From positions 1 to 12,111 of the forward strand of contig BTUM01000138.1 of the NCBI GenBank assembly GCA_045863235.1: 12,111 nt of DNA, given 5' to 3'. Positions 2,278 through 12,111 of the stretch are shown here, piece after piece. The translations under genes and the position numbers were made by a program. The stretch is from Candidatus Xenobia bacterium (GTDB taxonomy: Bacteria > Vulcanimicrobiota > Xenobia > Xenobiales > QWHO01). The notes beneath the pieces are model-generated. The model ran no database searches and was not told where the DNA came from. It saw only the letters and a list, made by a program, of their open reading frames with translations. Each line of letters starts with the position of its first letter. Position 1 is the stretch's first letter.

Positions 2278-2748
2278 TCAGTCTTCGAAGGACGGCTCTG
2301 GGCGCGCTTCAATGGCGGCGATGTCGGCCAGGTCCTGGGGTCGCCCGACGGCCCGCTTGTTGCGCAGGAGGTCTTCACGGGCGATCAATGGGATGCTCAA
2401 GCCCGGCTCGATTTGAAAGCGTTTGGCGCGGCCATAGCAGGGGTCAAACTCCAGGCCCTTCAGCTCGGTCAGAAGGTCGACTCGATTGGGCTCGTAACCC
2501 AGCTGGATGATGGTATCAGGGCTCGCAAAATCTTGCACCGTCAGCCCCAGGTTTCCAAAGCCAAACTCCTGCAGGGCGCTGATGATTCGCTGACCGTTGC
2601 TGGGGGAGGCTCGAACCCAGATGTCGAGGTCCTTAGTATAGCGCGGCATCGCATAGACCGAGGTGGCGTAACCGCCGACCACCAGAAACTCGACCCCGTG
2701 CCTGTCCAGGCAGTCGAGCAGGTCGGCGAAGTCACGCCCCAGCTTCAT
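2278..2748 (-). CDS. Small nucleotidyltransferase (Pol-beta superfamily, DUF6036/AbiEii-like), 156 aa
   Basis: VEFLVVGGYA (GG motif), PRYTKDLDIWV (DxD), RVDLLT (third Asp) and C-terminal LLRNKRAVGRPQDLADI, the motif set typical of small stand-alone NTases. Confidence 0.85.
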   Translation of the reverse strand: MKLGRDFADLLDCLDRHGVEFLVVGGYATSVYAMPRYTKDLDIWVRASPSNGQRIISALQEFGFGNLGLTVQDFASPDTIIQLGYEPNRVDLLTELKGLEFDPCYGRAKRFQIEPGLSIPLIAREDLLRNKRAVGRPQDLADIAAIEARPEPSFED

Positions 2749-2965
2749 CCGAAAGACGGCCCACTCTGACGACTTTCTTGACCATCGGCTGATCGGGATC
2801 GCCGGTCCAGCTGGGAAACATCCGCCGCAGCTGCTCCACTTCCGCGAACGCCTCGGCCGGACTCAAGAGTTGGGGGGGCTCTTGGAGCTCGGAGAGGCGA
2901 CTGACCCGGGCCACGCGGGCGATTTGCCGTTCCACCCTGGATTCTTTCGACTCCTCGAGTGTCAT
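2732..2965 (-). CDS. Small partner protein of the nucleotidyltransferase (77 aa, putative antitoxin-like)
   Basis: C-terminal part of track ORF 2732..3121. The ATG at 2965 overlaps the upstream stop (ATGA, 2962-2965) and the ORF overlaps the NTase start by 17 nt. LSPAEAFAEVEQLRR...PMVKKVVRV resembles small proteins I recall upstream of such NTases. Alternative GTG start at 2935. Confidence 0.7.
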   Translation of the reverse strand: MTLEESKESRVERQIARVARVSRLSELQEPPQLLSPAEAFAEVEQLRRMFPSWTGDPDQPMVKKVVRVGRLSDEAGA

Positions 2966-3465
2966 CCCTGGGATTGAGGGCTCAGAAAGCCCTCCGCCCG
3001 AAGCCGGCTCACAAGCTCGGGCGGCTCGTCCTCGAGCCACTGGATGCAGCACTCCGGGTTGACCGCAAGGCCCACCTCGGCCAGCTCGAGCATCTCGGGG
3101 GCGATCCAGACAACCAGACACTCTTGGAGGCCCAGGTTAGGCAGGAAATCCACCCAGGTATCCCAGGGCGGGACGTTGTCGTCATCGAAGAACCCGTCCG
3201 TGCTGACCCTGGCGGCACCATCGAACAGGTTCTGATCCGGGAAGTAGAGCAACAACCTTCCCCCCTCCAGCCCCGAGGCGGGCGGCACATCTCGTCGCAA
3301 AGCGATGTGGCGGTTGGAAGCGACATTTCGTACGGTCTCGGCGCGATCACCGCACAGCAGGCCGGGCCGCAACCTGGGCCACCAGTACTGAGCTGCGGGG
3401 CGCCCGCTGCACCAGGCGATGGTCTCGCCCAGCCGCTTTCGGAAAGTCTCCCAGTCAAGCCCCAT
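2962..3465 (-). CDS. Hypothetical protein (167 aa)
   Basis: Globular-looking sequence with an acidic/aromatic motif (GRLLLYFPDQNLFDGAA...GFFDDDNVPPWDTWV...NPECCIQWL). Overlaps the glcF end by 11 nt and the downstream start by 4 nt. Confidence 0.8.
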   Translation of the reverse strand: MGLDWETFRKRLGETIAWCSGRPAAQYWWPRLRPGLLCGDRAETVRNVASNRHIALRRDVPPASGLEGGRLLLYFPDQNLFDGAARVSTDGFFDDDNVPPWDTWVDFLPNLGLQECLVVWIAPEMLELAEVGLAVNPECCIQWLEDEPPELVSRLRAEGFLSPQSQG

Positions 3466-9231: not shown

Positions 9232-10557
9232 TCAGCGCTCTCGCAGCGGTTGCTCGAGGAGCTCGGCCAGCGCCTTCTCCTGCTCGGCCAGGGTCTCGCC
9301 CTCCAGCACGATGCGCCAGCCGCGCTCGGTCTGTTGCACCGATTTCTGCAGCGCATAAGGGGTCAGAAGGCCGCGCTCGGAGGGCTTGATGAGGAAGATG
9401 ACCGCTCCCTCGAAGGACTGGTAGCGCTCCAGGGTCTCGGGAGAAGAGAGGGGGGTGGCGGCATGGATGGCGCGCATGGGGCCGAGCGCGGCCACGCGCT
9501 GCTGAAAGCCCCCTCGCTGGATCTCGTCGCTGTTGGCGATCAGCAGCACCCGCCGCAAGACCACGATGGGGTCGCGACCTGCTTCGGGGAAGGTGGCCGT
9601 GAACGCGGCCGTGGCCCGGGCTGCGAAGGCCTCGTCCAGGGGCTTGCGCTGCTCGAGATAGGGGAGCAAGAGCGGCAAGAGAGCCCTGGCAAAGCCGTCG
9701 ATGACGGGGTCGTTGTACCACTGTTCGGGGCCCGCCTGGCCGAACCAGCCGTTGCCCAGGGCGGTGGCCAGCCCCTCATTGAGCTGATCGTAGACGTCGC
9801 CAGGAAAGGCATTGCGAAGGGAGACTGCGGTCTGGGCCGAGCGATTGCTCCAGAGCGCGTGGCAGAGCTCGTGCACGATCACGCCGGCCGAGCCGAGCAC
9901 CGGCGCGCCCTGGGGGGCCTCCACCACCGACAGATAGCCGTCCGAGTGGCCAAAGGCCTCGATGCGCTCGCCCTCCTTGCGAGGAATGGGGGTGAGCGCC
10001 ACCACGAAGGCGTCCTCCTCTGGCCACTGGCTCTGGTAGAGGACGGCGATGGTGGCCAGGCACTCGGCAGCCCGCCGCTCGGCCAGTACCTGGCGCAGCT
10101 CGCTCAGCTGCTGCTCGAGACCGGCCGAGCAGGGCTCAAAGATCAGCCTCTCATAGAGCGGGGCGTAATGGCGCATGGCGTCAGCGAGGCGGGCGTGGTG
10201 CTCGGTGCTCAGCAGGGGGCGGGTCCTGCTCAGGAAGTCTTCCACGTCCCGGGCCTGCAGGCTGATCCCTTCCAGGACGTCCGACAGAGTGCGCTGTTTC
10301 TCGCCATCGCCTGGAAGGCGAAGCGTGTTCCAGGCTTCGTCTTGCAGCAGCCGCGCAAAGTCTTCGAGCAGGGCCTGGTCCTCTTTCGTGGGAGGCCTCA
10401 GCTCGCGGAAGACCCGGGCCAGTTGCCTGCTGTGGTGGGCCTCACCGCGCAGCGATTCGAGCAGGTAGAGGGTGCCGTGCACCGGGGTGGCCTCCACCCG
10501 GATCTCCCAGGCCCGGACGGGATGCATGAGCAGGACCAGGAGCAGACACCAGCGCAT
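9232..10557 (-). CDS. Secreted gluzincin-type zinc metallopeptidase-like protein (441 aa)
   Basis: Sec signal-like MRWCLLLVLLMHPVRA. HELCH (HExxH) at 9859-9873, followed after 27 residues by the Glu of NEGLATALG (third-ligand motif). Confidence 0.8.
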   Translation of the reverse strand: MRWCLLLVLLMHPVRAWEIRVEATPVHGTLYLLESLRGEAHHSRQLARVFRELRPPTKEDQALLEDFARLLQDEAWNTLRLPGDGEKQRTLSDVLEGISLQARDVEDFLSRTRPLLSTEHHARLADAMRHYAPLYERLIFEPCSAGLEQQLSELRQVLAERRAAECLATIAVLYQSQWPEEDAFVVALTPIPRKEGERIEAFGHSDGYLSVVEAPQGAPVLGSAGVIVHELCHALWSNRSAQTAVSLRNAFPGDVYDQLNEGLATALGNGWFGQAGPEQWYNDPVIDGFARALLPLLLPYLEQRKPLDEAFAARATAAFTATFPEAGRDPIVVLRRVLLIANSDEIQRGGFQQRVAALGPMRAIHAATPLSSPETLERYQSFEGAVIFLIKPSERGLLTPYALQKSVQQTERGWRIVLEGETLAEQEKALAELLEQPLRER

Positions 10558-10680
10558 GGGGGGCGGCTTCGCCGCCAGGTTGGGGATTCACTGCCCTGCC
10601 GACTGCGAGCTGGCCTTGCGAACCCGAAGTTGTGATCCCTCCTACCGGGATCCGGTTTCGAGCACGCCTGCCCGAGGAGT

Positions 10681-11079
10681 TCAACCTCGTCCCGTGGTGG
10701 CCCGGGCTCGTGCTTTCGGCGGTATCGTCTCTTGGTTCGATTTGACCTGGATCTGGAAGTGGCCCTTGCGGCTGAACAGGTCGAGCACGACGGCCAAGTA
10801 GAGCCAGCCCTCTGCCGTCCAGATATGAGTCAGGTCACCAACCCCGGCCTGGGCTCGAAAGCGCTTTCCGAATCTGAACCGGCGGTATCGTCTCTTTGTT
10901 CGATCTGACCTGGAACCCGGCTTTGGAAGTGGCCGTCAACCCGGCCTGGGCTCGAATGTGCTTTCGGAATTTGAACCGGCGGTATCGTCTCTTTGTTCGA
11001 TCCGCCCTGAGCCCGGCTCTAGAAGTGGCCGTCAACCCGGCCTGGGCTCGGAAGTGCTTTCGGAATTTGAACCGGCGGT
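10681..11079. repeat. Intergenic tandem array of structured 96-97 bp units (one degenerate, two full, one partial copy)
   Basis: Unit approx. CAACCCGGCCTGGGCTCGAATGTGCTTTCGGAATTTGAACCGGCGGTATCGTCTCTTTGTTCGATCTGACCTGGAACCCGGCTTTGGAAGTGGCCGT, starting at 10839, 10937 and 11033 (partial, to 11079). A deleted copy lies at about 10681-10764. The anchor GGCGGT is at 10718, 10881, 10978 and 11074. Confidence 0.92.
10765..10842 (-). pseudogene. Fragment of IS3-family transposase (rve/DDE core, first catalytic Asp region)
   Basis: The minus strand translates to [26 protein letters not shown], matching the IS3 OrfB consensus WxxDITYIxTxEGWLYLAxVxDLFSRK. Similarity stops abruptly on both sides where repeat units begin. 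No terminal inverted repeats. Confidence 0.88.
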
Positions 11080-11127
11080 GTGGCCGCGGGACGCTCCTGT
11101 CGAAAGCCGCTTTCTCAGCCGAGGCAT

Positions 11128-11760
11128 TTACCCCGGTTTGCGCACCTTGACCCGCACGCCGCCCAGCGTGACCGAGGCTTCCTCCACGGCGATCTGGACC
11201 GAGGGAGCCTGACTCAGGCGAGCCAGTCCGTCCCGGCGCACCGTCTCCAGGTCGGCTCGGGCCGTGTCGACTGCCTGCTTGAGAGGCCTGAGAGCCTCCT
11301 GGAGCTGGTTGCGCTCGGTGCGCAGAGCCTTGACCGCGGCGTGGTCGACCTGGAGCGGCAGAGCGACGTGGCGCATCAGCTTGAGATAGCCGAGCCACAG
11401 GCCGATACCCAGTAAGGCTCCCCCTCCGCCGCTCAGGCCCAGGTGGGGAGCGGCCAGAATGCCGCCGAGTGCGCCGGCGCAGAAGGTCAGGGGAGACAGG
11501 CGAACGTGGATCTGGCGCTTTTCGTTCCAAAGGCTGGAGCGCATCTGGTCCATGTTGGTGAAGGAGGTGCGCTTGAGGAAGGGCATGCCGAGCAGGCGCT
11601 CGGTGTCCTGGAGTCGAGCCTGATACGAGTCGTGCTGCGACTCGACGCGCTGCAGCCGGGCCTCGGCCTCGGTCAACTCGGGGCTGATGGCCTGGCCTTT
11701 GAACAGCACGTCACCGACGCTGGTGGCCGCCACGGGGAGAATGGTCATCGCGGTCAGCAT
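11128..11760 (-). CDS. Hypothetical protein with coiled coil, Gly-rich hydrophobic hairpin and second coiled coil (210 aa)
   Basis: C-terminal part of track ORF 11128..11943. AGGAG lies 8 nt upstream of ATG 11760 (alternative ATG at 11748). Hydrophobic segment LTFCAGALGGILAAPHLGLSGGGGALLGIGLWLGYL sits between heptad-rich helices. Confidence 0.8.
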   Translation of the reverse strand: MLTAMTILPVAATSVGDVLFKGQAISPELTEAEARLQRVESQHDSYQARLQDTERLLGMPFLKRTSFTNMDQMRSSLWNEKRQIHVRLSPLTFCAGALGGILAAPHLGLSGGGGALLGIGLWLGYLKLMRHVALPLQVDHAAVKALRTERNQLQEALRPLKQAVDTARADLETVRRDGLARLSQAPSVQIAVEEASVTLGGVRVKVRKPG

Positions 11761-11788
11761 ACCTCTTGCTCCTGAAGGAAATCTGACA

Positions 11789-11880
11789 GGGTGTTGCTGA
11801 CTACTGGGCAACACCCCGGGGTATGCACGCGTCCTGGCTCCCAGACTGGCATCCCAGGCAGACCTGACAACGCGTCGGGG
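11789..11880. other. Structured non-coding element (hairpin plus nested stem-loop), function unknown
   Basis: Perfect 9 bp stem GGGTGTTGC/GCAACACCC (11789-11816). Nested stems CCCCG/CGGGG (11814-18 with 11876-80), ACGCGT/ACGCGT (11827-32 with 11870-75) and CCTGG/CCAGG (11833-37 with 11854-58). Confidence 0.5.
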
Positions 11881-11897
11881 GCTACACAATAGATACT

Positions 11898-12111
11898 CAA
11901 TAGATTGCGGTGGGGGTCTTGTTGGGTGCAGACGCTTGATCAAACTGACGCGAGCTGGTGCAAAGGCGCGTGGAGACCATTGAAGACTCTTTCGGGAGGT
12001 TGTTCACGAGGGCACCCGTCTTGGTCACTCCGACGCGCTGGTTGTGGGTCAGGTCCCCGGGCCTGCGCCGGCAAGTCGGGTGCGCATGCGCGCCCCACTC
12101 GGTGGCGCAAC
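11898..12111 (+). mobile_element. Possible left non-coding end of an IS110-family element (bridge-RNA-like structured region), truncated by the window end
   Basis: No convincing ORF. Stems GGGTGC/GCACCC (11924-29 with 12012-17), ACGCG/CGCGT (11948-52 with 11967-71), CTCT-TTCG-GGAG (11987-98) and GGGTGCGC/GCGCGCCC (12078-95). The motif order ATAGATTG...AAACTGACGCG...GCGTGGAGA...GTTGTTCACGAGGGCA resembles IS110 leaders as I recall them. No transposase in the window. Confidence 0.4.

What the first reader, a model, noticed from the sequence alone, without database searches (positions are those of the whole stretch)
10759..10849. 74 bp piece of IS3 transposase catalytic core lodged between two repeat units, like a captured spacer
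Seen: intact junctions read GTGGCC-GT-CAACCC (10929-10942, 11025-11038). At the first junction it reads GTGGCC-[10765-10838]-CAACCC. The insert, read on the minus strand through to 10842, encodes [26 protein letters not shown] with no stop or frameshift. Established: this is the most conserved internal segment of IS3-family DDE transposases, and normal IS insertion or decay tends to leave ends and IRs, not an isolated internal piece. The insert interrupts the GGCCG/CGGCC hairpin, and GTCA/CAACC microhomology lies at its right boundary. Inference: either microhomology-mediated capture, or a non-CRISPR repeat array that acquires mobile-element fragments. A + strand transcript would be antisense to IS3 transposase mRNA. 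One insert alone cannot establish a system.
Basis: partly seen in the sequence, partly recalled or inferred. Interest (0 to 1): 0.8.

Follow-up and report, generated by a model that had tools for sequence, protein, structure and literature searches.

The report
Transposase gene scrap patched into repeat
A roughly 80-base internal scrap of a jumping-gene (IS3) transposase was copied into one unit of a non-coding tandem repeat by a short-homology repair or replication accident, so it is a mutational scar and not a CRISPR-like memory of invaders.

Summary
A 96/97-bp tandem array (10691-11079) has its first unit split at GTGGCC^GT^CAACCC by a piece that, on the minus strand, reads 29 codons of an IS3-family OrfB. 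Likeness to the nearest full IS3 (sister species G004, 83%) runs over 10764-10852. Only 'GT' of the unit was lost.

The orthologous arrays in two sister species are intact. Contigs of three runs from three studies bridge both junctions, so this is not a chimera. No other IS3 remnant lies in the window or the assembly. Of 32 core-to-core intervals in arrays of this repeat family in four genomes, one holds the piece. No cas or defence genes lie nearby.

Best reading (0.8): a single microhomology-guided patch insertion (SPDIR-like, template switch or Ku end-joining filler), probably neutral.

Open lead: other short internal gene pieces lie beside copies of this family (3 observed, 0.34 expected in a rough, post hoc screen), so the family may be a hotspot for such patches.

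The parts
10765..10838 (-). IS3-only part of the insert (74 nt). With the next part it encodes residues equivalent to OrfB 128-156 of the G004 IS3, including the first catalytic Asp region (GDLT).
   Evidence: 83% DNA identity to G004:C17 orfB, 24 of 29 residues identical. Unique in the assembly.
10839..10852 (.). Extended microhomology shared by the repeat unit (CAACCC-GGCCTGG) and IS3 (CCAGGCCTGGGTTG on the minus strand). This is the right-hand crossover zone. It carries one extra C relative to intact units.
   Evidence: An IS3-like contig of run X4 also matches the window up to 10852 and then diverges (record 27).
10763..10764 (.). Left crossover: a 2-nt overlap (GG on the minus strand) between IS3 ...CGCAAGG and unit ...GGCCAC.
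   Evidence: triple comparison of donor proxy, product and intact unit.
10691..10764 (+). Unit 0 of the array. It is degenerate: it lacks about 13 nt of the core's left part and about 6 nt further on, and it ends in GTGGCC.
10839..10934 (+). Unit 1 (96 nt).
10935..11031 (+). Unit 2 (97 nt). The intact junction hairpin GGCCG-TCAACC-CGGCC lies at 10931-10946.
11032..11079 (+). Unit 3, a half unit that ends the array.
10601..10690 (+). Second ectopic piece ('A'). It is a decayed internal fragment (about residues 482-517 of 581) of an AAA_16 P-loop ATPase gene whose intact copy is G000:C37:61309-63051(-). It abuts unit 0 at the same GT^CRACCC point. It is shared with G001 and absent in G003.
10920..10949 (+). 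Unit segment GCTTTGGAAGTGGCCGTCAACCCGGCCTGG (again at 11016-11045). It is about 94% identical over 31 aligned columns (one gap) to coding sequence of a histidine-motif membrane protein gene at G000:C26:76254-76284.
9232..10557 (-). Downstream neighbour: 441-aa protein with a hydrophobic N-terminus (by eye, no predictor run), no Pfam or PADLOC match. The array lies in its upstream region.
11128..11943 (-). Upstream neighbour: ORF of up to 271 aa (an ATG near 11748 looks the likelier start, by eye), with weak coiled-coil matches only.

Best explanation
This is a one-off illegitimate recombination scar. In the lineage of this species, after its split from sister species G003 and G001, a stretch of about 75-89 nt from the orfB gene of an IS3-family element was copied into the first unit of an intergenic 97-bp tandem repeat.

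The event started or ended where repeat and IS3 happen to be most alike: minus strand CCAGGCC-GGGTTG against CCAGGCCTGGGTTG, preceded by GAGCCC in both. It closed on a 2-nt overlap. Only 'GT' of the unit was replaced, so the repeat phase is kept. The site is the loop and 3' stem of a G+C-rich hairpin (GGCCG-TCAACC-CGGCC), a place where replication may stall and single strands may be exposed.

Shown: anatomy, junctions, polarity (derived state) and reality of the assembly. Inferred: the molecular route, and that the piece is neutral.
For: 1. Junctions. The triple comparison of donor proxy, product and intact unit shows 13 of 14 shared bases plus one gap at the right junction and 2 nt at the left. 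The best local alignment between the intact unit and the whole 1.6-kb G004 IS3, on either strand, is exactly this stretch.
2. Phase. Intact junctions read GTGGCC-GT-CAACCC. The split one reads GTGGCC-[74 nt]-CAACCCC.
3. Polarity. The orthologous arrays G003:C74 (4.5 units) and G001:C140 (1.5 units) have only GTGGCCGTCRACCC junctions.
4. Not an artefact. Logan contigs bridge both junctions: X1 record 4 (10402-10890, 7 differences, 2 gaps), X2 record 10 (10634-10904, 5 differences, 3 gaps), and X4 records 23 and 26 with no differences. These are three runs from three studies.
5. No other IS3 remnant. tblastn of G004 OrfA and OrfB finds only 10765-10851 in the window (next best E 0.49) and nothing else in the assembly at E <= 1e-3.
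6. Donor kind. G004:C17 carries a full IS3: orfA with HTH_Tnp_1 (4.1e-13) and an overlapping orfB with HTH_21 and rve (5.1e-25). It is the best match among 61 relatives and among 401 genomes of the phylum. IS3-like contigs about 95% identical over 56 nt occur in run X4 (record 27).
7. [quoted passage not shown]
8. Rarity. One of 32 core-to-core intervals in arrays of the family in G000-G003 holds the piece.
9. Ku is encoded in the genome (163.5 bits), so end joining is available.
Against: - The true donor is not in hand. The nearest full IS3 is only 83% identical, so the exact crossover points and the T-to-G difference in the Trp codon (QAW to QAG) cannot be assigned.
- A local score as high as the junction microhomology occurs somewhere in 55 of 300 shuffled units. 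The argument rests on its coincidence with the junction, not on its strength.
- The left junction has only 2 nt of overlap.
- A second gene piece (10601-10690) abuts the same point of the unit at the array edge. Other family copies have gene pieces beside them: 3 observed against 0.34 expected, P about 0.005, rough and post hoc. Both hint that the site is a recurrent target and not the place of a single accident.
- X1 and X2 show no listed difference within 10733-10904 but 5-7 differences in the 100-250 nt to the left (15 rows of that table were not shown). I cannot explain this.
Confidence: 0.8

Rival explanations
1. Recurrent hotspot or element-associated capture. The repeat family, or its hairpin junction, repeatedly provokes breaks or fork stalls that are mended by copying in short internal pieces of unrelated genes. 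The IS3 piece is then one of several such patches.
For: - Piece A (10601-10690, AAA_16 ATPase gene fragment) abuts the same GT^CRACCC point.
- The unit's junction segment itself is about 94% identical over 31 aligned columns to a coding gene on C26.
- Two other family loci carry abutting gene pieces. C48:7658-7699 is 95% identical over 42 nt to an asparaginase-like gene on C142, next to 64 nt that match C92 at 95%. C48:47336-47437 is 88% identical over 113 nt to a membrane-protein gene on C1.
- Rough screen: of 52 non-coding pieces with a coding look-alike, 3 lie within 200 nt of family copies against 0.34 expected (P about 0.005). Near 336 other high-copy non-coding repeats there are 3 against 1.99 expected (P 0.32).
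- Four of five pieces lie 5-27 nt to the 3' side of the core.
Against: - The test was made after the pattern was seen, on a home-made gene call, with three counts.
- The 10-unit (C97) and roughly 10-unit (C89) arrays hold no foreign piece.
- Three sister arrays (G001:C134, G001:C27, G003:C74) show no new ectopic low-copy match.
- The orientation of the pieces relative to the core is mixed.
- Piece A may be a left-flank relic and not an insertion.
Confidence: 0.12
2. Decay remnant. A whole IS3 once inserted in the array, and two later deletions removed both of its ends.
For: IS3 relatives exist in the genus. The 14-nt likeness could have driven one of the deletions.
Against: The flanks meet in register, with only 'GT' missing. 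The second deletion, guided by a 2-nt overlap, would have had to end at just that point of a 97-nt unit. There are no inverted repeats, no target duplication, no orfA and no other orfB sequence. Sister arrays show no IS.
Confidence: 0.05
3. Dedicated acquisition system. A non-CRISPR repeat array stores pieces of mobile elements as a memory or as antisense regulators.
For: A mobile-element piece sits between repeat sequences. Read in the orientation of the repeat core it is antisense to the transposase.
Against: - One of 32 intervals holds such a piece. The other pieces near family copies come from housekeeping-type genes and lie in mixed orientation.
- No repeat was duplicated at the insert.
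- No cas or defence gene is in the 12-kb contig.
- No promoter-like site was found.
- RNAalifold finds no conserved RNA fold in the family (energy -0.05, against a shuffle mean of -0.10), and there is no Rfam match.
- No IS3 of this kind is in the assembly to act on.
Confidence: 0.02
4. Assembly or library chimera.
For: The genome is a 166-contig draft of an uncultured organism, and tandem repeats are hard to assemble.
Against: Contigs of three runs from three studies bridge both junctions, two of them with strain-level differences in the flanks. The junction overlaps (14 nt with a gap, and 2 nt) are far shorter than an assembler's word; the 55-nt contig-end overlaps seen in this assembly suggest its word length.
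Confidence: 0.01

Closest known systems
[quoted passage not shown] Harms et al. 2016 is known to me only as cited in bioRxiv 10.1101/2023.11.22.568220, of which I read passages. bioRxiv 10.1101/2024.07.02.601687 was seen as a listing only.
   Same: A short ectopic patch within the 3 to about 100 bp range replaces a few recipient bases. One junction lies in an extended microhomology with a mismatch or gap, the other in a minimal one. The donor can come from inside or outside the genome. The standard way to show such an event is a triple alignment of recipient, mutant and donor, and that is possible here.
   Different: This case is a fixed natural variant in an uncultured bacterium, not a selected laboratory mutant. 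The donor is known only by proxy (83%). The single-strand annealing route is inferred and cannot be told from template switching or end joining.
Filler-DNA or templated-insertion repair of double-strand breaks (Ku/LigD end joining, microhomology-mediated end joining). The yeast and plant cases of mobile-element DNA captured at breaks are recalled, not read. PMC12426944 and bioRxiv 10.1101/2022.03.14.484287 were seen as listings and abstract starts only.
   Same: An unrelated DNA piece, here from a mobile element, fills a break with little loss of flanking sequence and with microhomology at the joints. The genome encodes Ku and reverse transcriptases (6 RVT_1 matches).
   Different: No break was observed. 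A 14-nt gapped homology at one side is longer than is usual for end joining.
CRISPR arrays and spacer acquisition
   Same: A piece of a mobile element lies between direct repeats.
   Different: The repeat unit is 97 bp. The piece splits a unit and adds no new repeat. The other inter-core sequences are themselves repeated. No cas genes are in the contig.
IS3-family insertion sequences (orfA and orfB with frameshift, DDE transposase). The nearest example is G004:C17 (locus L002).
   Same: The piece is homologous to OrfB residues 128-156, at the start of the rve catalytic core.
   Different: It has no ends, no orfA and no remaining catalytic core. It cannot be an element or encode a transposase.
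Interspersed and tandem extragenic repeats of bacteria (REP/BIME, ERIC, MITE-like elements; recalled)
   Same: The host repeat has a conserved core of about 45-55 nt. It occurs singly and in tandem in intergenic DNA, is restricted to one genus, and contains short palindromes.
   Different: Arrays are direct repeats with array-specific unit lengths (63-212 nt). No terminal inverted repeats, target duplications or associated transposase were identified. No conserved RNA fold was found.

Membership tests
SPDIR-type / microhomology-guided patch insertion | A short ectopic patch (about 3-100 bp) replaces a few recipient bases | tested here: met
   74 nt unique to IS3 (up to 89 nt with the shared stretch) replace 'GT'.
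SPDIR-type / microhomology-guided patch insertion | Microhomology or extended microhomology at both crossover sites | tested here: met
   Right: 13 of 14 bases plus one gap, and further GAGCCC. Left: 2 nt. The left one is minimal.
SPDIR-type / microhomology-guided patch insertion | Recipient (pre-event) state known | tested here: met
   Intact junctions in units 1/2 and 2/3, and in the G003 and G001 orthologues.
SPDIR-type / microhomology-guided patch insertion | Donor sequence identified | tested here: inconclusive
   Nearest full IS3 is 83% identical (G004). A metagenome contig is about 95% identical over 56 nt. No donor is in the assembly.
SPDIR-type / microhomology-guided patch insertion | Single-strand annealing at a replication fork as the route | not testable with these tools
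   Needs genetics or a reporter assay.
CRISPR array | Short repeats (about 23-50 bp; range recalled) that alternate with unique spacers of similar length | tested here: not met
   The unit is 96/97 bp. The sequence between cores is repeated in every array read.
CRISPR array | Each acquisition adds a repeat with the spacer | tested here: not met
   The piece splits one unit in register, and no unit is duplicated.
CRISPR array | cas genes nearby | tested here: not met
   Pfam on 13 window ORFs and the 31-residue piece, and PADLOC on the two neighbouring genes, gave none. Only the 12-kb contig was examined; the rest of the genome was not scanned for cas.
IS3-family insertion sequence (as an element) | orfA and orfB, complete DDE core, terminal inverted repeats, target duplication | tested here: not met
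   Only OrfB residues 128-156 are present, with nothing else at E below 0.49 in the window. Inverted repeats and target duplication were judged by inspection of the flanks, which are repeat units.
IS3-family transposase (homology of the piece) | Significant similarity to the rve core of IS3 OrfB | tested here: met
   tblastn E 1.35e-10, 24 of 29 residues; blastn 83% over 89 nt, E 2e-21. Pfam rve E 2.4e-5, below the cut-off because of length.
Structured RNA family (Rfam or new) | Conserved secondary structure with covariation | tested here: not met
   Rfam gave none at gathering score or at E <= 1. Single units fold with z-scores of -1.2, -1.8, +0.5 and +1.2. RNAalifold on 33 copies gave -0.05 and 0.0 kcal/mol, against a shuffle mean of -0.10.

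The most novel reading that the evidence does not exclude
The genus-specific repeat family (core ACCGGCGGTATCG-N4-TTTGTTCG) marks hotspots where short internal pieces of unrelated genes (31-113 nt) are copied in, mostly 5-27 nt to the 3' side of the core. Pieces seen so far come from the IS3 transposase, an AAA ATPase, an asparaginase-like gene and membrane-protein genes. This would be a bacterial counterpart of filler-DNA capture at fragile or mobile repeats, and a natural record of SPDIR-like events.
Probability: 0.15. Interest if true: 0.55.

Novelty: new member of a known kind. Interest (0 to 1): 0.3.

Why it matters
As it stands this is a clean natural example of a rare mutation class: a microhomology-guided insertion of an ectopic patch. 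The recipient state, the product and a donor relative can all be lined up, in an uncultured phylum (Eremiobacterota according to earlier unchecked notes).

It also serves as a caution. A mobile-element fragment between repeats is not by itself evidence of an adaptive memory.

If the hotspot lead held, the repeat family would give a way to read the rate and spectrum of such patch insertions in wild genomes. It would also show how short repeats and gene scraps come to build mosaic intergenic DNA.

Tried and rejected
- Donor in the own assembly. blastn of the insert, tblastn of the peptide, an rve profile search (only C119 at 27.5 bits and the piece itself, both below the cut-off) and tblastn of G004 OrfA/OrfB found none.
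- tRNA or tmRNA origin of the repeat: ARAGORN found 0 genes.
- Known RNA family: Rfam found 0 matches at gathering score for the whole window and 0 at E <= 1 for 10500-11200.
- Conserved RNA fold of the family: none.
- Promoter or terminator in 10400-11300: 0 and 0 found; shuffles give 0.1 and 1.0.
- The idea that the family's CGAACA-N2-TGCTCG box is this organism's LexA (SOS) box. The Gram-positive box consensus is recalled. No GAAC-N4-GTTC-like site was found in the roughly 400 nt upstream of three lexA-like genes and recA. Dropped.
- Defence context: PADLOC gave no match for the two neighbouring genes or for the C37 ATPase.
- Earlier notes of this scan: nothing near the finding or similar in sequence.
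- Foreign inserts in other arrays. Irregular intervals were read. C89 1015-1244 holds decayed copies of the same unit. C103 has a 212-nt unit present twice. G002:C22 and G002:C444 each contain a masked run of N and cannot be judged there. G001:C27, G002:C507 and G002:C85 were judged by spacing only (90-107 nt); G001:C27 was also searched against its own genome.
- A closer donor by scanning the large public collections (DNA search or the search for related loci on genome or metagenome contigs) was not tried.
- One literature search failed because the phrase was too long and was not repeated. So Harms et al. 2016 itself was not seen.

Full report
**What is there.** The window is one whole 12,111-bp contig (C138) of a 166-contig, 8.36-Mb draft genome. 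Earlier unchecked notes of this scan call the organism an uncultured Eremiobacterota.

Two minus-strand genes flank a 570-nt non-coding stretch: 9232-10557 (441 aa) and 11128-11943 (an ORF of up to 271 aa). Neither has a Pfam or PADLOC family. The stretch holds a direct tandem array. TRF reports 10843-11079 with period 96, 2.5 copies and 91% matches. The repeat finder gives spacings of 97 and 96 nt, and 163 nt across the first interval. I read the array as a degenerate unit 0 (10691-10764), unit 1 (10839-10934), unit 2 (10935-11031) and a half unit (11032-11079).

**The observation.**
- Intact junctions read GTGGCC-GT-CAACCC at 10929-10942 and 11025-11038.
- At the first junction, GTGGCC (10759-10764) is followed by 74 nt and then CAACCCC.
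- The minus strand reads [31 protein letters not shown].
- Pfam rve matches profile positions 9-36 of 102 at E 2.4e-5, below the curated cut-off as a 26-residue piece must be.
- An open frame of 29 codons is not informative at this G+C content.

**Where the piece comes from.** Nothing else in the assembly resembles it.
- blastn found only the piece itself; the next hit has E 0.03.
- tblastn of the peptide found only itself; the next hit has E 1.4.
- An rve profile search gave one other weak hit on C119, below the cut-off.

Among 61 relatives, the best match is in sister species G004, at 82% over all 78 nt. Among 401 genomes sampled from the phylum, G004 is again the best, at 83% over 89 nt; 6 of the 401 have any match at E <= 1e-6. 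At that G004 place lies a complete IS3-type element. Its orfA (140 aa) carries HTH_Tnp_1 (4.1e-13). It overlaps an orfB (329 aa) with HTH_21 and rve (5.1e-25). The window piece corresponds to OrfB residues 128-156, with 24 of 29 identical (E 1.35e-10). This is the start of the catalytic core and includes the first Asp.

**The junctions are the key result.** The DNA alignment with the G004 orfB does not stop at 10838. It runs over 10764-10852. On the minus strand:

| Sequence | Left part | Right part |
|---|---|---|
| Donor proxy (G004 IS3) | GGAGCCCGACCAGGCCTGGGTTGGCGAC | CGCAAGGTGGTG |
| Product (this window) | TCGAGCCC---AGGCCGGGGTTGGTGAC | CGCAAGGGCCACTTCC |
| Intact unit | TCGAGCCC---AGGCC-GGGTTGACGGCCACTTCC | (continuous with the left part) |

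The extra C of CAACCCC in the split unit sits inside this zone. At the other end the overlap is GG.

The best local alignment between the intact unit and the whole 1.6-kb IS3, on either strand, is this very stretch. A score that high occurs somewhere in 55 of 300 shuffled units, so the weight lies on its coincidence with the junction. The net change to the unit is that 'GT' is replaced, and the repeat phase is kept. The site lies in the hairpin GGCCG-TCAACC-CGGCC (10931-10946 in an intact junction).

**Polarity and reality.** The same intergenic array exists in two sister species.
- G003:C74 has 4.5 units with all junctions GTGGCCGTCRACCC.
- G001:C140 has 1.5 units, also intact.
- G002 and G004 have other sequence between the two genes.

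The piece is therefore a derived state of this lineage. Logan contigs of public runs bridge both junctions:
- X1 record 4: 489 nt, 10402-10890, 7 differences, 2 gaps.
- X2 record 10: 281 nt, 10634-10904, 5 differences, 3 gaps.
- X4 records 23 and 26: no differences.

These are three runs from three studies. One of them may be the source sample, but X1 and X2 differ from the window in the flanks. A chimera is thus excluded, and the piece is shared by diverged strains. X4 also holds IS3-like contigs. One of them (record 27) matches 10797-10852 with 3 differences and then runs on into sequence that translates as the upstream part of OrfB. This again places the end of IS3 likeness at 10852.

**No decayed IS around it.** tblastn of G004 OrfA and OrfB against the window gives nothing besides 10765-10851 (next best E 0.49). 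blastn of the 2-kb element gives nothing else below E 0.07. The flanks are repeat units. A whole IS followed by two deletions would have to end, on a 2-nt overlap, at just the base that restores the repeat register. I rate that at about 5%.

**Is it a system?** The repeat core belongs to a family restricted to this genus. The pattern ACCGGCGGTATCG-N4-TTTGTTCG, with up to 3 mismatches, occurs as follows:

| Genome | Matches | Reversed-pattern control |
|---|---|---|
| G000 | 34 | 1 |
| G001 | 10 | 1 |
| G002 | 19 | 1 |
| G003 | 13 | 0 |
| G004 | 1 | 0 |

The array DNA matched 4 of 46 genomes, all of this genus. Copies stand alone or in direct arrays with array-specific unit lengths of 63-212 nt.

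From the positions I count 32 core-to-core intervals under 260 nt: 17 in G000, 4 in G001, 8 in G002 and 3 in G003.
- One holds the IS3 piece.
- Two contain masked N runs.
- The irregular ones that I read hold decayed copies or a longer unit.
- Three arrays were judged by spacing alone.

In every array read, the sequence between cores is itself repeated, so there are no unique spacers. No unit was duplicated at the insert. No cas or defence gene is in the contig. No promoter-like or terminator-like site lies in 10400-11300. There is no Rfam match, and no conserved fold in 33 distinct copies on either strand. Both neighbouring genes are on the minus strand, where a transcript would be sense to the piece. 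A dedicated acquisition or antisense system is therefore close to refuted.

**Mechanism.** The pattern is a short ectopic patch, a few recipient bases replaced, a gapped extended microhomology at one joint and a minimal one at the other. [quoted passage not shown] Replicative template switching at a stalled fork, or capture of a DNA (or cDNA) fragment at a break, would leave the same scar. The genome encodes Ku and has six RVT_1 matches. I cannot separate these routes.

**What does not fit a pure one-off.** While checking the arrays for foreign sequence I found further gene scraps.
- **(A)** 10601-10690, directly left of unit 0, is a decayed internal piece of an AAA_16 P-loop ATPase gene. It corresponds to about residues 482-517 of 581. 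The intact copy is C37:61309-63051(-). The evidence is blastn 82% over 56 nt (E 3e-7), tblastn matches DxELAxRT..PSYRD.V..LPEEFNL, and Pfam AAA_16 at 1.2e-5, below its cut-off. G001 has the piece too, with other residues kept (ERAARTLVER..LPEELNLD). G003 has only GCCGT at that place. Its right end meets the unit at the same GT^CRACCC point, within a TCGAC overlap. Whether it was inserted there or G003 lost it is open.
- **(C)** The junction segment of each unit is about 94% identical over 31 aligned columns (one gap) to coding sequence of a membrane protein with histidine motifs on C26. The G004 orthologue of that gene is only 17 of 31 identical in this segment, against about 77% in the flanks. 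The direction of transfer is unclear.
- **(D, E)** Beside the family copy C48:7782-7831 lie 42 nt that are 95% identical to an asparaginase-like gene on C142, and an abutting 64 nt that are 95% identical to C92. The G003 orthologue lacks that segment.
- **(F)** Five nt after the copy C48:47283-47336 lie 113 nt that are 88% identical to a membrane-protein gene on C1.

**A rough screen for such pieces.** I ran a self-megablast and built a home-made gene mask from ORF length and codon-position G+C (6,915 ORFs, 86% coding).
- It finds 52 non-coding, low-copy pieces of 28-130 nt with a coding look-alike elsewhere, contig ends excluded.
- Three lie within 200 nt of family copies, against 0.34-0.37 expected (P about 0.005).
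- Near 336 other high-copy non-coding repeats there are 3, against 1.99 expected (P 0.32).

Against a hotspot:
- The test was post hoc, on three counts.
- The largest arrays (C97, C89) hold nothing foreign.
- Three sister arrays show no new ectopic match.
- Orientations are mixed.

I keep it as a lead at about 0.12-0.15.

**Verdict.** The 'captured spacer' reading is not supported. The feature is a natural member of a known class of rare mutations and is probably neutral. Interest is modest (0.3), carried mostly by the clean reconstruction and by the untested hint that this repeat family collects such patches.

Noticed in passing
window 10691-11079; G000 contigs C97:9-692, C89:800-1430, C103:6715-6982, and single copies on C5, C7, C39, C48, C52, C67 and others: A genus-restricted repeat family with a conserved core, roughly tCGAACAnnTGCTCG-T-rich-(G/A)(A/T)ACCGGCGGTATCG-N4-TTTGTTCGa. 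It has 34 pattern matches in G000 against 1 control, and is essentially missing from same-genus G004. Copies stand alone or in direct arrays with unit lengths of 63-212 nt. There is no Rfam match, no conserved RNA fold and no SOS-box link. Its function is unknown.
   Followed up: partly
window 10601-10690: A decayed internal fragment of about 90 nt of an AAA_16 ATPase gene (intact copy G000:C37:61309-63051, minus strand). It lies between the start of gene 9232-10557 and the array. It is shared with G001 and replaced by GCCGT in G003.
   Followed up: partly
window 10920-10949 and 11016-11045; G000:C26:76254-76284 (L055): The junction segment of the repeat unit is about 94% identical over 31 aligned columns to coding sequence (ARIALEVAAQPGLAGK) of a membrane protein with HxxxH-type motifs. 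By recall it looks CarF/TMEM189-like; this was not tested. The G003 copy of that gene stretch is 99% identical to G000 over 601 nt, much more than the 84-96% of the other loci compared.
   Followed up: partly
G000:C48:7658-7755 and C48:47336-47437 (L052 covers the first): Two further family copies have short internal gene pieces beside them: 42 nt from an asparaginase-like gene (C142), 64 nt that match C92, and 113 nt from a membrane-protein gene (C1).
   Followed up: partly
G000 genome-wide: A rough screen finds about 52 non-coding pieces of 28-130 nt with a coding look-alike elsewhere in the genome, in 49 distinct 1-kb bins. Some regions hold several; for example, in the unfiltered list, C24:81-84 kb holds three and C161:2.7-2.9 kb two. 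Mosaic intergenic DNA seems common in this genome.
   Followed up: partly
G000:C121:17925-18070 flank; G001:C27:35090-35143 flank: Other high-copy short repeat families are present. A unit of about 110 nt has more than 40 matches in G000. A unit of about 55 nt has about 30 matches in G001, many 98-100% identical.
   Followed up: no
window 10733-10904 against 10488-10732, in runs X1 and X2: The strain contigs show 5-7 differences in the 100-250 nt left of the insert. None is listed in the insert and the following unit (15 rows of that table were not shown). The array length also varies: X2 has a joint that skips 130 nt, G003 has 4.5 units and G001 has 1.5.
   Followed up: no
L002 (G004:C17) 2561-3076, minus strand: About 460 nt downstream of the G004 IS3 lies the cut end of another integrase or transposase-like ORF (...HSDRGSPMTA...YNNEHRH...). 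The donor-type IS therefore sits in a region rich in mobile elements.
   Followed up: no
G000:C1:322933-323115 upstream region: The second lexA-like gene has a GTGGACAAATGTCCAC palindrome, and a related CTGTCCAC, just upstream. This is a candidate operator unlike the Gram-positive type box.
   Followed up: no
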